Assembly: GCF_000019345.1 (NCBI RefSeq)
Contig: NC_010503.1
Location: forward strand, 270,001 to 302,000
DNA length: 32,000 nucleotides
From: Ureaplasma parvum serovar 3 str. ATCC 27815
GTDB lineage: Bacteria; Bacillota_I; Bacilli_A; Mycoplasmatales; Mycoplasmoidaceae
Reading direction: 5' to 3'
Below, piece by piece: positions 9,050 through 15,164 of the stretch (positions are counted from its first letter, which is position 1; the number at the start of each line of letters is the position of its first letter). The notes under the pieces are model-generated. The model made no database searches. It worked only from the letters and a program-made list of their open reading frames with translations, and was not told the origin of the DNA. The translations under genes and the position numbers were made by a program.

Positions 9050-9985
9050 ATGACAAATAAAGTTATTCAAAGAAATATTCATATTTCGCACCGTAAAGCT
9101 TCTCTTGTAATTGATTTAGTTCGAAACAAGCCAGTACATGAAGCAATTCGAATTTTAAGTAATACACCAAAGAAGTTTGCTCCAATCGTTTTGAAATTAC
9201 TTAACTCAGCAATTTCAAACGTTCAACATAACTCTAAAGATATGGATCCAAGTAAACTATATATTTACAAAATTGTAGCTAATCAAGGTCCAACAATGAA
9301 AAGAACACTACCACGTGCTAAGGGTTCTGCTGATCAATTATTTAAACGTACAACACATTTAGAAATTGTTTTATCTGATGATGTTAATGAACGTGAAAAA
9401 GAATTAGCAGCTATTAAAGCTAAAAAATCAAAAAAACCATTAGCAGTTGAACCGATTGCTAAAGTTGAAACTAAAAAAGTTGCTAAACCAAGCAAAGTAG
9501 AAATAAAACCAGTTGAAAAAGACGAAAACGTTGATCCAGAACTTTTAAAACGTGAACAACAAGTTTTAAAAGTTGTTGAAAAAACTGCTTCACAAAAAGA
9601 AGAAGAAACTACTGAAACAATTATGATTTCAACATCACCTAAGAATGCACAAGTTTTATTTGATGATTTAGAAAAAAATGTAATCTTTTATAAAACAACA
9701 CCTATTAATAAAGTTTTACGTGTACTAGTTTATGTAACTAGCCCAACTAAAAAAGTTGTTGGTGAATTTGATTTAGAATCAGTTGAAATTGGTGCAATTT
9801 CATCAATTTGAAGAAAATACAGCAAACAATCTGTAATTTCTAAAAAAGAATATGATGCTTACTATGAAGGAAAAGATAAAGCACATGCACTTGTAAGCAA
9901 AAAAGCATATAAATACCGTAATCCAAAAGATCTTAGCGAATATAACATGACTAAAGGTCCAAGTGGATTCCAATATTTAAAATAG
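9050..9985 (+). CDS. rplV: 50S ribosomal protein L22 with a long C-terminal extension: Lys/Glu-rich linker plus an ASCH/PUA-like domain (311 aa in total)
   Basis: aa 1-111 are a normal L22 core ([26 protein letters not shown]...[22 protein letters not shown]). The frame stays open, with one TGA=Trp at 9809-9811, to TAG 9983-9985. aa 112-191 are a KE-rich linker. aa 192-311 (nt 9623-9982) resemble stand-alone ASCH proteins. Confidence 0.85.
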
Positions 9986-10004: not shown

Positions 10005-10778
10005 ATGGGTCAAAAAGTAAATCCAAATGGACTAAGATTTGGGATCAACAAACAATGACTATCTCGTTGAGTGCCAACTGATCAATTACAAATGGCTAAA
10101 TGATTAGTTGAAGATGATAAGATTAGAAAATATTTATCAACAAAATATAAAAATGCTGGTATTGATCATGTAGAAATTGAACGTGACCAACAACGGGTAA
10201 ATGTTTATGTATATGCTGTACAAAGTGGTTTATTAATTGGAACAGAAGCATCAGAAAAGAAATTAATTGAATTAGCAATTAACAAAATCGTTGGTCGTAA
10301 ACAATTAGTATCTTTAAAAGTAGTTGAAGTTCAAATTCCAGAATTACAAGCTTCATTAATGGCACGTGAAATTGCCGACGCAATTGAAAATAGAGTTTCA
10401 TTTAGAATTGCTCAAAAAATGGTAATTAAAAAAGTTCTAAAAGCTGGTGCTAGAGGTATTAAAACACATGTTTCAGGTCGTTTAGGTGGCGTGGAAATGG
10501 CACGTGAAGAAGGATATACACAAGGTGTAATGACCTTACATACATTACGTGCAGATATTGATTATTCAATGCAAGAAGCACATACAACTTATGGAATTAT
10601 TGGTGTTAAAGTTTGAATTAATCGTGGCGAATTATTTGGTAACAAATTAGTAAACAGTGTTGCGCATGCTGCAAATAAGGAATTTAGTCGTAGTTCAAAA
10701 CCAAAAAAAGGATCATTTAATCGTTCATCAAGATCAAAAAATACTAAACCTGCTCCAAAACAAGCAGTTAGCGAATAG
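10005..10778 (+). CDS. rpsC: 30S ribosomal protein S3
   Basis: GGGAG RBS followed by ATG 10005. [22 protein letters not shown]... joins track ORF 10359..10616 through TGA=Trp codons. It has a basic C-terminal tail. Stop is TAG 10776-10778. Confidence 0.95.
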
Positions 10779-14552: not shown

Positions 14553-15164
14553 ATGGAAAACAATGTTAAAAAAGAAACTATTGTAGATAGTGAAAAAGTT
14601 GAAAAGCAACAACTAGTAACTGCACCAGTAGTTAATAAAAAAGAAAATACAGAACCAAAAGCAAAAACATTTAAACGTGAAACAACAACATCAAATTTTG
14701 AAGAACGTGTAGTGAAAATTAAACGAATTTCAAAAACAACAAAAGGTGGACGTATGATGCGTTTTAGTGCTTTAGTTGTTATTGGTGATAAAAATGGAAC
14801 TGTTGGTTTTGGTATGGGTAAATCAATTGAAGTTCCAGATGCAATCAAAAAAGCGATTAAAAACGCAAACAATAATTTAATTAAAGTTAAGCAAACAAAA
14901 AAAGGTTCAATTTACCATGATGTAAATGGTCGTCATGGAGCTGCTAAAGTAATGTTACTACCTGCTCCTGAAGGTACTGGAATTATTGCTGGTGGACCTG
15001 TACGTGCTGTGGTTGAATTAGCTGGATTTACTGATATTTATACAAAATCACGTGGTGCTAATGCGCCAATGAATGTTATTCGTGCCACAATCAATGGGTT
15101 ATTACAACAATTAACACCAAAAGAAATTGCACGTTTACGTGACAAAAGTTTAAGAGAAATATAG
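14553..15164 (+). CDS. rpsE: 30S ribosomal protein S5 with an N-terminal extension of about 45 aa
   Basis: The core starts at [43 protein letters not shown] and is preceded by a Lys/Glu-rich extension. Confidence 0.95.

What the first reader, a model, noticed from the sequence alone, without database searches (positions are those of the whole stretch)
9050..9985. Ribosomal protein L22 fused to a C-terminal ASCH/PUA-like domain
Seen: rplV does not stop after the roughly 111-aa L22 core. The same frame runs to TAG 9983-9985 (311 aa) with one TGA=Trp and no TAA or TAG. aa 112-191 form a Lys/Glu/Pro-rich linker ([37 protein letters not shown]...). aa 192-311 (nt 9623-9982) read [113 protein letters not shown]. 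This follows, block for block, the pattern I recognise from stand-alone ASCH proteins: the I-S-I-x-P start, V-x-I-Y-x-T-x-P-x-K-x-I-V-G-E-F, I-W, Y-x-x-Y-F-x-G-x-x-K-A-x-A and P-Q-S-F-x-Y-L. Established: ASCH is a PUA-like beta-barrel predicted to bind RNA, and one member (E. coli YqfB) hydrolyses N4-acetylcytidine. L22 sits at the exit tunnel and on the 50S surface. Inference: an RNA- or modified-base-recognising module is tethered to the large subunit by a flexible linker. There is no obvious SD before the internal ATG at 9623, so it is probably not a separately translated gene.
Basis: partly seen in the sequence, partly recalled or inferred. Interest (0 to 1): 0.78.

Follow-up and report, generated by a model that had tools for sequence, protein, structure and literature searches.

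The report
Ribosomal protein L22 carrying ASCH domain
In Ureaplasma parvum, ribosomal protein L22 really does end in a flexible tether carrying an ASCH-type RNA-binding domain; related mycoplasmas attach the same cassette to other ribosomal proteins, and it has lost the residues that ASCH enzymes need for catalysis.

Summary
rplV (9050-9985) encodes a 311-aa protein with one TGA=Trp, identical to Swiss-Prot RL22_UREPA and found on more than 100 contigs. NCBI already models it as "L22/unknown domain fusion protein". The "unknown domain" (aa 190-311) is an ASCH domain. It matches ZmASCH by sequence (E=5e-11) and by fold (pLDDT 91; TM 0.73-0.79; rmsd 1.7 A). A profile comparison with stand-alone ASCH relatives gives 99.9% probability. 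Pfam's ASCH model misses it directly. New here: the same cassette (conserved ExLKREQxxLKVV motif, spacer, ASCH ending [10 protein letters not shown]) forms the C-terminus of uL22, uS3, bS20, bS16 and an ATP-synthase alpha subunit in Ureaplasma, Malacoplasma and uncultured relatives. Some genomes carry two copies. The fused modules form one clade. All of them have lost the Glu and Arg of the GxKxxExR motif (window: K209, I212, Y214), and PQSF has become PSGF. They remain under purifying selection similar to the L22 core. The tether is predicted to be disordered. Most likely this is a non-catalytic nucleic-acid-binding module held on the ribosome by an interchangeable anchor. The function is untested. 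It is a new variant of a known kind, of moderate interest.

The parts
9033..9037 (+). SD-like AAAGG 13 nt upstream of the rplV start codon
   Evidence: Read directly. Comparable AGG/GGA cores precede rpsS, rpsC and rplP; none precedes the internal ATG at 9623.
9050..9985 (+). rplV CDS, 311 codons plus TAG. It encodes the uL22-tether-ASCH fusion (35.4 kDa, pI 9.7).
   Evidence: NCBIfam NF008917 matches 1-311/311 at 636 bits (cut-off 526). The protein is identical to RL22_UREPA.
9050..9382 (+). uL22 core, aa 1-111
   Evidence: Pfam PF00237 covers aa 7-109 at E=1.5e-33; TIGR01044 scores 102.5 bits. AF2 pLDDT is 86-93, lower in the beta-hairpin. dN/dS is 0.12-0.25.
9383..9529 (+). K/E/V-rich tether, aa 112-160. 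A helix at aa 114-127 continues from the core, followed by a disordered stretch.
   Evidence: pLDDT is below 50 for aa 132-161. Length varies and indels occur between species. dN/dS is 0.4-0.7.
9461..9518 (+). Degenerate 15-nt (KVETK-like) tandem repeat inside the tether
   Evidence: TRF reports period 15, 3.7 copies, 68% matches. Strains with 312 aa exist.
9530..9580 (+). Clade-specific conserved motif [17 protein letters not shown], aa 161-177 (short helix plus a beta-bridge residue)
   Evidence: E164, L166, K167, R168, E169, Q170, L173, K174, V175 and V176 are conserved in at least 80% of 47 fused modules and absent from stand-alone ASCH proteins. A helix at aa 163-170 and a bridge at V175 appear in both AF2 models, with pLDDT 74-84 in the module model.
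9581..9616 (+). Variable acidic/polar spacer, aa 178-189
   Evidence: pLDDT is below 50 for aa 177-187. The stretch is length-variable. dN/dS is about 0.75-1 or higher.
9617..9982 (+). ASCH (PUA-like beta-barrel) domain, aa 190-311; pI 9.5, net charge +8
   Evidence: phmmer to ZmASCH 5GUQ/5GUS gives E=4.7e-11. AF2 gives pLDDT 91 and pTM 0.82. Foldseek top hits are ZmASCH at E=2e-11 and TM 0.73/0.79. hhalign gives 99.9%. dN/dS is 0.13-0.43.
9665..9691 (+). Degenerate ASCH octapeptide: D206-L-E-K209-N-V-I212-F-Y214 in place of G-x-K-x-x-E-x-R
   Evidence: Three independent alignments place K209 at the Lys, I212 at the Glu and Y214 at the Arg. Across 47 fused modules K is kept in 46, the Glu position is F/L/I, and the Arg position is Y in 44. 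In 105 stand-alone relatives E and R are each present in 104.
9809..9811 (+). TGA codon read as Trp254 (family-invariant Trp, equivalent to ZmASCH Trp73)
9959..9970 (+). P304-S-G-F307, the clade-specific replacement of the stand-alone P-Q-S-F. The Ser corresponds to ZmASCH Ser128.
   Evidence: fused modules have S in 45/47 and G in 47/47; stand-alone relatives have Q in 101/105 and S in 84/105. ZmASCH Ser128 contributes to RNA binding and cleavage (PMC5615036).

Best explanation
The Ureaplasma parvum rplV gene encodes a genuine three-part protein. It has a normal uL22 core that is built into the 50S subunit, a roughly 80-residue charged and largely disordered tether, and a C-terminal ASCH domain preceded by a short clade-specific helix/strand motif. 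This cassette descends from stand-alone ZmASCH-like, GKER-type ASCH proteins. It was captured once in the Ureaplasma/Malacoplasma lineage. Since then it has been copied repeatedly between the 3' ends of genes for abundant proteins (uL22, uS3, bS20, bS16, AtpA), and every genome examined keeps at least one ribosomal copy. The Glu and Arg of the GxKxxExR motif and the Gln-Ser of the PQSF loop are replaced in every fused copy. The positions lining the cleft, the basic charge and the fold nevertheless remain under purifying selection. The module therefore most likely no longer works as an ac4C amidohydrolase or RNase. Instead it probably acts as a non-catalytic nucleic-acid or nucleobase-binding 'reader/capture' domain. 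The tether holds it at one or two copies per ribosome and is long enough to sweep much of the ribosome surface, so the attachment point does not matter. What is shown: the gene structure, the fold, family descent, motif loss, selection, anchor diversity and predicted disorder. What is inferred: incorporation of the full-length protein into ribosomes, the ligand (RNA), and loss of catalysis.
For: Intact ORF and identity to RL22_UREPA on 116 contigs. L22 core hits. ASCH by sequence, with ZmASCH at E=4.7e-11 (entry identities confirmed in PMC5615036). ASCH by fold, with pLDDT 91, TM 0.73-0.79 and rmsd 1.7 A. ASCH by profile, with hhalign at 99.9% and E=7.5e-35. The family has 4,240 representatives, mostly stand-alone proteins of about 125 aa, and 68 of the 104 aligned sequences reach Pfam ASCH. 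The same cassette sits on S3, S20, S16 and AtpA, with the partners verified by Pfam. Genomic loci show L22 only (Ureaplasma spp.), L22+S20 (M. muris), L22+S3 (M. penetrans, MAG L010), S3 only (L013-17) and S16 (L018). The fused modules are monophyletic and often group by genome, e.g. M. penetrans L22 and S3 modules are 98% identical. Motif loss is K-x-x-[FLI]-x-Y and PSGF in 44-47 of 47 fused copies, against E and R in 104/105 stand-alone relatives. Lys and Glu/Thr are experimentally essential for ASCH ac4C deacetylation (bioRxiv 10.64898/2026.02.27.708502). Ser128 and Tyr47 matter for ZmASCH RNase activity. dN/dS of the ASCH part is 0.13-0.43, similar to the core. The tether has pLDDT below 50 and pTM is 0.42. 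The module is basic, at pI 9.5. No SD, promoter or terminator lies inside the gene. There is precedent for ASCH proteins acting on ribosomes: EOLA1 binds 12S mt-rRNA and TUFM, and TRIP4/Rqt4 acts in the RQT complex at the 40S mRNA entry.
Against: No experiment shows that the 35-kDa form is in ribosomes, and no proteomic data were found. The AtpA fusions show that the cassette does not strictly need a ribosome, which weakens a ribosome-specific role. Loss of the canonical residues does not exclude a new catalytic site; clade-specific invariant H279, D241, S261 and K209 could form one, and their geometry could not be measured because model coordinates are not exposed. RNA binding is inferred only from family and charge. 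The window sequence does not reach Pfam's ASCH model on its own. The genome census is incomplete: one exact pattern was used, 15 loci were returned, and U. parvum and M. penetrans themselves were not returned.
Confidence: 0.55

Rival explanations
1. Expression hitch-hiking. The ASCH module is still an enzyme, such as a hydrolase for a modified nucleoside or RNA base, or an RNase with a remodelled active site. Its job does not depend on the ribosome. It is fused to the C-termini of very abundant, constitutively made proteins only because this guarantees expression in a tiny genome with few promoters and regulators.
For: The anchors are unrelated apart from being abundant and having free C-termini: uL22, uS3, bS20 and bS16 on both subunits, plus the ATP-synthase alpha subunit. 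The cleft positions and many clade-specific polar residues (K209, H279, D241, S261) are invariant. Stand-alone relatives and other ASCH proteins are enzymes.
Against: The Glu/Thr shown to be essential for ac4C hydrolysis is hydrophobic in all 47 fused copies, and the Arg is Tyr. The ZmASCH Ser128 equivalent is Gly. 45 of the 46 fused proteins retrieved are on ribosomal proteins, and every genomic locus examined has a ribosomal copy. That bias would be unexpected if any abundant protein would serve. No free-standing copy of the fused-type module was found; P0239 turned out to be a truncated gene call.
Confidence: 0.2
2. Structural ribosomal element. The module folds back and docks at one fixed site on the ribosome, on rRNA or a neighbouring protein. 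It would act like a lineage-specific extra ribosomal protein, for example compensating for an rRNA or r-protein reduction. The long tether lets it reach that site from any anchor.
For: Sequence conservation is very strong, including an invariant C-terminal [10 protein letters not shown], as expected for a fixed macromolecular interface. EOLA1, a free ASCH protein, binds 12S rRNA. Tethers of 60-100 or more residues could span the ribosome.
Against: Genomes with two copies (L22+S3, L22+S20) would have two modules competing for one site. The AtpA fusion cannot dock on a ribosome in cis. AF2 shows no contact between the module and the L22 core (pTM 0.42).
Confidence: 0.15
3. The fusion is only genetic. 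The ASCH part is made or released as a separate polypeptide, either by internal initiation at ATG 9623 or by proteolytic cleavage in the tether, perhaps at the conserved ExLKREQxxLKVV motif.
For: A conserved motif lies just upstream of the domain. The tether is disordered and therefore accessible to proteases. From general knowledge, mycoplasmas process many proteins post-translationally.
Against: There is no SD and no promoter before 9623. The Met is Ile in 8/47 homologues and lies within beta-strand 1. The motif is predicted to be a helix plus a strand bridging onto the domain rather than an exposed cleavage loop. If release were the aim, a stand-alone gene would be simpler, and none was found.
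Confidence: 0.07
4. Artefact: a missed stop or frameshift, or a mis-assembly, joins L22 to a separate downstream ORF.
For: None beyond the unusual length. One chimeric database entry (P0001) shows that artefacts do occur in this region.
Against: The identical 311-aa product is found on 116 contigs from many strains, and U. urealyticum has a 311-aa orthologue. Three independent assemblies are 99.8-99.98% identical to the window. Intact fusions occur in at least 5 other Ureaplasma species and in Malacoplasma, under purifying selection.
Confidence: 0.01

Closest known systems
ZmASCH (Zymomonas mobilis ASCH protein; PDB 5GUQ/5GUS/5Y6B/5Y6C), a Mg-dependent ssRNA-specific ribonuclease in vitro
   Same: It is the closest solved relative by sequence (E=4.7e-11, about 26% identity) and by fold (TM 0.73-0.79, rmsd 1.7 A). 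Tyr47, Thr49, Lys53, Trp73 and Tyr90 are retained as Y228, T230, K234, W254 and Y271. Both are basic.
   Different: ZmASCH is a free protein with an intact G25-x-K27-x-x-E30-x-R32 motif and a Q127-S128 loop. The window domain has D-x-x-K-x-x-I-x-Y and S-G instead. It also carries an extra N-terminal conserved motif and is covalently tethered to uL22.
YqfB / TthASCH (TTHA0113, 2DP9) / EOLA1 / TRIP4-ASCH: ac4C amidohydrolases and tRNA ac4C 'erasers'
   Same: They share the ASCH beta-barrel (Foldseek hits 2dp9 at 5e-5, TRIP4 at about 2e-3 and YqfB at 1e-2). The Lys of the octapeptide is conserved (K209).
   Different: The Glu (or Thr) required for hydrolysis, and the Arg, are missing in all fused copies. 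Membership of this enzyme class is therefore not supported.
NCBIfam NF008917 / PRK12279 '50S ribosomal protein L22/unknown domain fusion protein' (Swiss-Prot RL22_UREPA)
   Same: This is the same protein. The match is full-length (1-311/311) at 636 bits against a cut-off of 526, and the sequence is identical to AAF30645.1.
   Different: The database name leaves the C-terminal domain 'unknown'. Here it is identified as ASCH and shown to be a cassette shared with S3, S20, S16 and AtpA fusions.
Eukaryotic ribosome-associated ASCH proteins: TRIP4/Rqt4 in the ASC-1/RQT collision-clearing complex, and EOLA1 on the mitoribosome
   Same: An ASCH-domain protein operates at the ribosome. RQT sits at the 40S mRNA entry next to uS3 and uS10. 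EOLA1 binds 12S rRNA and TUFM. uS3 is one of the bacterial anchors found here.
   Different: Those proteins are recruited non-covalently and keep the GKER motif. Here the attachment is covalent and constitutive and the motif is degenerate. No helicase partner is evident.
C-terminal extensions of mycoplasma ribosomal proteins (e.g. the M. pneumoniae L22 tail; basic tails on L29, S3 and L22 in Malacoplasma)
   Same: They are lineage-specific, low-complexity K-rich C-terminal extensions on the same proteins (P0088).
   Different: Those tails are short or purely disordered. Here the tail ends in a folded, conserved 14-kDa domain.

Membership tests
uL22 (Pfam PF00237 Ribosomal_L22; TIGR01044 rplV_bact) | Significant match to the L22 models above their curated cut-offs | tested here: met
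   PF00237 gives E=1.5e-33 and 115.5 bits (cut-off 28) over aa 7-109. TIGR01044 gives 102.5 bits (cut-off 73.65).
uL22 | Position between rpsS and rpsC in the S10 operon | tested here: met
   rpsS is at 8762-9028, rplV at 9050-9985 and rpsC at 10005-10778, followed by rplP, rpmC and rpsQ. The order is the same in L001-L003.
NCBIfam NF008917 (L22/unknown domain fusion protein) | Full-length match above the curated cut-off | tested here: met
   636.3 bits against a cut-off of 526, covering 1-311 of 311.
ASCH superfamily (PUA-like) | Direct hit to Pfam PF04266 ASCH at or above the gathering score | tested here: not met
   No PF04266 hit even at E<=10 for the full protein or for aa 190-311; only DUF365 (0.006) and Phage_ProQ_C_like (0.007) appear.
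ASCH superfamily (PUA-like) | Significant sequence homology to established ASCH members, directly or transitively | tested here: met
   phmmer to ZmASCH gives E=4.7e-11. hhalign of the fused profile against the stand-alone profile gives 99.9% and E=7.5e-35. 68 of the 104 aligned sequences hit PF04266, with a best E of 1.4e-9. P0093, P0097, P0132 and P0164 score above the gathering cut-off of 21.2.
ASCH superfamily (PUA-like) | ASCH-type beta-barrel fold | tested here: met
ASCH superfamily (GKER/GKTR octapeptide groups) | GxKxx[ET]xR signature motif | tested here: not met
   The window has D206-L-E-K209-N-V-I212-F-Y214. Only the Lys is kept. This holds in 47/47 fused modules, while stand-alone relatives keep E and R in 104/105.
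YqfB/TthASCH-type ac4C amidohydrolase | Catalytic Lys plus Glu (or Thr) dyad shown essential by mutagenesis | tested here: not met
   Lys is present, but the Glu/Thr position is Ile212 (F/L/I across the clade). The requirement is documented in bioRxiv 10.64898/2026.02.27.708502, section 22.
YqfB/TthASCH-type ac4C amidohydrolase | Hydrolysis of N4-acetylcytidine (free or in tRNA) | not testable with these tools
   This needs an enzyme assay with the recombinant module.
ZmASCH-type ssRNA ribonuclease | Cleft residues Tyr47, Lys53 and Ser128 that contribute to binding and cleavage | tested here: inconclusive
   Tyr47 corresponds to Y228, invariant in 47/47. Lys53 corresponds to K234, which is K in 30/47 and Q in 10/47. 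Ser128 corresponds to G306, which is Gly in 47/47. Two of the three residues are retained in the window.
ZmASCH-type ssRNA ribonuclease | Mg-dependent cleavage of ssRNA | not testable with these tools
   This needs a biochemical assay.

The most novel reading that the evidence does not exclude
The Ureaplasma/Malacoplasma lineage has evolved a covalently ribosome-tethered ASCH 'reader'. This pseudo-enzyme retains a ligand pocket for a specific RNA feature, such as a modified base or the single-stranded 3' or 5' part of mRNA or tRNA. It surveys every ribosome from a 20-30 nm leash. Functionally it would parallel the eukaryotic TRIP4/Rqt4 or EOLA1 ASCH proteins, or replace an mRNA-capturing factor lost during genome reduction. 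Selection acts on 'one module per ribosome' rather than on where the module is attached, which explains why the cassette hops between uL22, uS3, bS20 and bS16.
Probability: 0.2. Interest if true: 0.8.

Novelty: new variant of a known kind. Interest (0 to 1): 0.55.

Why it matters
Folded accessory domains fused to core bacterial ribosomal proteins are uncommon, to my knowledge. This one is conserved, under selection, and swaps between four ribosomal proteins on both subunits. That pattern implies a function needing proximity to the ribosome but not a fixed position. It gives a name and a structural model to a domain that NCBI's own family model still calls 'unknown' in a human urogenital pathogen. 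It identifies a natural ASCH clade lacking the residues recently shown to be essential for ac4C erasure, which is useful for separating the binding and catalytic roles of ASCH domains. It also links bacterial ribosomes to a domain family whose eukaryotic members (TRIP4/Rqt4, EOLA1) act in ribosome rescue and mitochondrial translation. Finally, rpL22 is used for Ureaplasma MLST (PMC4122457, listed) and L22 is examined in macrolide-resistance studies (my own knowledge), so knowing which two-thirds of the gene is not L22 matters for interpreting variants.

Tried and rejected
(1) A direct Pfam or NCBIfam assignment of aa 190-311 to ASCH failed; only sub-threshold DUF365 and Phage_ProQ_C_like hits appeared. 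The assignment rests on PDB sequence and fold searches and on profile comparison.

I worked around this with an alignment of the two TGA-free halves plus P0002, and later with P0003.

(3) The word-indexed protein search is insensitive for this module: 2 hits with the domain alone and 11 with the profile. The host census is therefore a lower bound.

(4) The genome scan used one exact peptide pattern and returned 15 loci. It missed U. parvum and M. penetrans themselves, so it cannot be used for absence claims.

(6) Model coordinates are not exposed. Pocket geometry, electrostatics and docking of the upstream motif could not be measured.

(7) Literature: no accessible paper describes an ASCH-ribosomal-protein fusion. 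The founding ASCH paper (Iyer, Burroughs & Aravind 2006, PMID 16322048) is not held. From memory, its abstract mentions 'prokaryotic translation regulation', so it may already have noted such fusions; I could not check.

(8) No Ureaplasma proteomic evidence on L22 size was found.

(9) P0239, P0238 and P0240 looked like free-standing fused-type modules. For P0239 the upstream frame stays open. P0238 is an N-terminally truncated fragment whose sequence is contained in the S16 fusion P0218. P0240 was not checked further.

(10) Internal initiation at 9623 was rejected.

(11) A sequencing artefact was rejected.
Full report
**Source and context.** The window has 27.5% G+C and reads TGA as Trp. It carries infC-rpmI-rplT followed by a complete S10-spc-alpha ribosomal operon. 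It is 99.98% identical over 8.3 kb to CP041199.1, a 741,809-bp genome. The rplV product is identical to Swiss-Prot RL22_UREPA / AAF30645.1 of Ureaplasma parvum.

**Observation.** ATG 9050 opens a frame that runs to TAG 9983-9985, with one TGA (9809-9811) and no other stop. This gives 311 aa, 35.4 kDa and pI 9.7. Pfam Ribosomal_L22 covers aa 7-109 (E=1.5e-33) and TIGR01044 is above its cut-off. NCBIfam NF008917, '50S ribosomal protein L22/unknown domain fusion protein', matches 1-311 of 311 positions at 636 bits. The fusion itself is therefore on record, but its C-terminal domain is unnamed there. The exact sequence occurs on 116 contigs, and U. urealyticum has a 311-aa orthologue in the same 90% cluster. 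Intact fusions of 305-328 aa exist in U. diversum, U. canigenitalium, U. miroungigenitalium, U. zalophigenitalium and Ureaplasma sp. ES3154. A hidden stop or frameshift is excluded.

**Identity of the C-terminal domain.**
- Pfam's ASCH model (PF04266) does not hit it; only sub-threshold DUF365 and Phage_ProQ_C_like hits appear.
- phmmer against PDB sequences finds 5GUQ, 5GUS, 5Y6B and 5Y6C at E=4.7e-11. These are the Zymomonas mobilis ASCH protein (PMC5615036).
- An exhaustive HMMER search of 1.84 billion representatives finds 4,240 relatives (1,354 at E<=1e-10). Most are stand-alone proteins of about 125 aa. Several exceed Pfam ASCH's gathering score, and 68 of the 104 aligned sequences hit PF04266 at E<=0.01.
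- A profile-profile comparison of the fused modules with the stand-alone proteins gives 99.9% probability and E=7.5e-35.
- An AlphaFold2 model of aa 156-311 has pLDDT 91 and pTM 0.82. Its eight best Foldseek PDB matches are all ZmASCH (E=2e-11, TM 0.72-0.80, rmsd 1.7 A). TTHA0113, AF2351, McrB-N, TRIP4-ASCH and YqfB follow; YTH and EVE domains are much weaker.

The block pattern it recalled matches the real consensus of the stand-alone family.

**Architecture.**
- In a full-length AF2 model the L22 core (pLDDT 86-93) and the ASCH domain (77-91) are both confident.
- aa 132-161 and 177-187 fall below pLDDT 50, and pTM is 0.42. This indicates two independent domains on a disordered tether.
- The tether is K/E/V-rich and contains a degenerate 15-nt repeat. 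It varies by in-frame indels between strains (311 or 312 aa) and between species.
- Embedded in the tether is a 13-17-residue motif, VDPE-x-LKREQ-x-x-LKVV (aa 161-177). It is conserved in at least 80% of fused modules and absent from stand-alone ASCH proteins.
- Both AF2 models predict this motif as a short helix plus a beta-bridge residue. It is probably an N-terminal extension of the domain.
- No SD-like core precedes the internal ATG at 9623, whereas rpsS, rplV, rpsC and rplP all have one.
- No promoter-like or terminator-like site lies inside the gene.
- The Met at 9623 is part of beta-strand 1 and is Ile in 8/47 homologues.

**The cassette is not specific to L22.** A search with the whole protein retrieved long S3 (about 400 aa) and long S20 (about 253 aa) proteins at E=1e-41 to 1e-51. 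Their C-termini are the same cassette: motif, spacer and ASCH ending [10 protein letters not shown]. The exhaustive search added S16 fusions and an ATP-synthase alpha fusion. Pfam confirmed all the partners. Among 46 retrieved proteins ending GPxGFxYL[KR], the anchors are L22 in 26, S3 in 9, S20 in 8, S16 in 2 and AtpA in 1.

Genomic loci show these combinations (M. penetrans):
- L22 only in Ureaplasma spp. and one Malacoplasma MAG.
- L22 plus S20 in M. muris.
- L22 plus S3 in M. penetrans and MAG L010.
- S3 only in L013-L017, where L22 has a plain basic tail.
- S16 in a Ureaplasma MAG.

The AtpA fusion follows atpH/OSCP on its contig. A second, related acidic-linker fusion explains the apparently free P0239.

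In a neighbour-joining tree the fused modules are monophyletic against stand-alone ASCH proteins. They frequently group by genome rather than by anchor: M. penetrans L22 and S3 modules are 98% identical, those of MAG L010 (O21 bin 69) are 78% identical, and M. muris L22 and S20 modules are 69% identical. The S16 and AtpA versions are basal. The simplest reading is a single capture followed by repeated copying or gene conversion among the 3' ends of genes for abundant proteins.

**Motif loss.** Stand-alone relatives keep the ASCH octapeptide G-x-K-x-x-E-x-R (K 105/105, E 104/105, R 104/105) and a P-Q-S-F loop. All fused modules keep the Lys (46/47). They replace Glu with F, L or I and Arg with Tyr (44/47), and they read P-S-G-F (45-47/47). 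In the window these residues are K209, I212, Y214 and P304-S-G-F307. phmmer, MAFFT and hhalign all agree on this register.

Mutagenesis of TthASCH, EOLA1 and TRIP4-ASCH shows that Lys and Glu (Thr in the YqfB type) are essential for ac4C removal from tRNA (bioRxiv 10.64898/2026.02.27.708502). ZmASCH needs Tyr47, Lys53 and Ser128 for RNA binding and cleavage. Here Tyr and Lys are present but the Ser is Gly. Other cleft and core positions are retained in both groups: Y228, T230, P232, W254, Y271, F307 and Y309.

The module is basic (pI 9.5; clade median net charge +7). Nei-Gojobori dN/dS for the ASCH part is 0.13-0.43, similar to the L22 core at 0.12-0.25. The linker (0.4-0.7) and spacer (about 0.75 to above 1) are less constrained (dS is partly saturated, so the values are approximate).

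**Interpretation.** The protein is a genuine uL22-tether-ASCH fusion, with confidence of at least 0.95. For mechanism, I favour a catalytically degenerate ASCH that works as a tethered nucleic-acid or nucleobase-binding module, at about 0.5. The reasoning is as follows.
- The residues required for both documented ASCH chemistries are changed in every copy.
- The cleft, the charge and the fold are nevertheless conserved as tightly as a core ribosomal protein.
- The anchor varies across both subunits while the long disordered tether is kept. This fits a function that needs proximity to the ribosome but not a fixed position.
- ASCH proteins acting on ribosomes are known in eukaryotes: TRIP4/Rqt4 in RQT next to uS3 and uS10 at the mRNA entry, and EOLA1 on 12S mt-rRNA with TUFM.

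The AtpA fusions are the main counter-evidence. They keep alive a rival in which the module is a remodelled enzyme that merely hitch-hikes on abundant proteins (0.2). Other rivals are a fixed docking site as an extra structural element (0.15), release by cleavage or internal initiation (0.07) and artefact (0.01).

**Novelty.** The ASCH founding paper could not be read and may already mention such fusions. Several points appear absent from the accessible literature: the cassette's spread over uL22, uS3, bS20, bS16 and AtpA; its monophyly and intragenomic copying; the clade-specific upstream motif; and the uniform loss of the GKER and PQSF residues. I rate it a new variant of a known kind, with interest 0.55.

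Noticed in passing
L013-L016 and L011 (Malacoplasma / uncultured Mycoplasma MAGs), whole loci: The S10 operon order is rearranged to S19-L22-L16-L29-S3-S17, with rpsC moved downstream of rpmC. The window, M. muris (L012), L010 and L017 keep the usual S19-L22-S3-L16-L29-S17 order.
   Followed up: no
P0034 (240 aa) and P0049 (258 aa), L22 homologues: These L22 proteins carry a different C-terminal add-on after a Pro/Lys linker. It is a Cys-rich segment (C-x2-C ... C-x2-C, e.g. CSICHDDDNW...HICYFCW) that looks like a zinc ribbon. This suggests L22's C-terminus is a recurrent docking point for extra domains in this lineage.
   Followed up: no
L020 316-2634 (Logan SRR17509930 contig); L021/L022: An ATP-synthase alpha subunit (772 aa) located after atpH/OSCP carries the same ASCH cassette on a strongly acidic linker. 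A second lineage (L021/L022) has a similar acidic-linker fusion. In both, the downstream gene encodes a conserved N-terminal transmembrane protein rather than an obvious atpG.
   Followed up: partly
P0001 (68 aa, ENA): This is a chimeric database protein. The first 17 residues are the S3 N-terminus ([17 protein letters not shown]), joined to the last 51 residues of the L22 ASCH domain. It is probably a mis-assembly or deletion across the short shared 'KQ' junction.
   Followed up: no
L019 1181-2086 (stand-alone relative P0002) and P0164, P0108, P0123: The closest stand-alone ASCH relative lies directly after an AAA_17/AAA_18 ATPase gene. Other relatives are fused to PIN (with an EVE-like region) or to other C-terminal domains. 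This matches the (PIN)-GNAT-EVE/ASCH/AAA_17 defence- or TA-like context described in PMC7641849. ZmASCH itself is deposited as an 'HTH domain-containing protein'.
   Followed up: partly
window 9461-9518; strain variants P0249/P0254 (312 aa), L001: The L22 tether contains a degenerate 15-nt (KVETK-like) tandem repeat. U. parvum and U. urealyticum strains differ by one in-frame codon. rpL22 is used in Ureaplasma MLST schemes, so part of that locus is fast-evolving linker.
   Followed up: partly
L010-L017, L011, L012: rpmC, rpsC and rplV products: Malacoplasma-group L29 (125-216 aa), S3 (266-280 aa without the module) and L22 (181-221 aa without the module) all have long Lys/Pro/Thr/Ser-rich C-terminal tails. 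Low-complexity tails appear to be general in this clade and may be the substrate on which the cassette was grafted.
   Followed up: no
window 14553-15164 (S5, 203 aa) and 4443-5006 (IF3, 187 aa): In the window itself, S5 has an N-terminal K/E-rich extension of about 40 residues and IF3 a polar N-terminal extension of about 20 residues, relative to typical bacterial lengths as I know them. Start codons were not verified.
   Followed up: no
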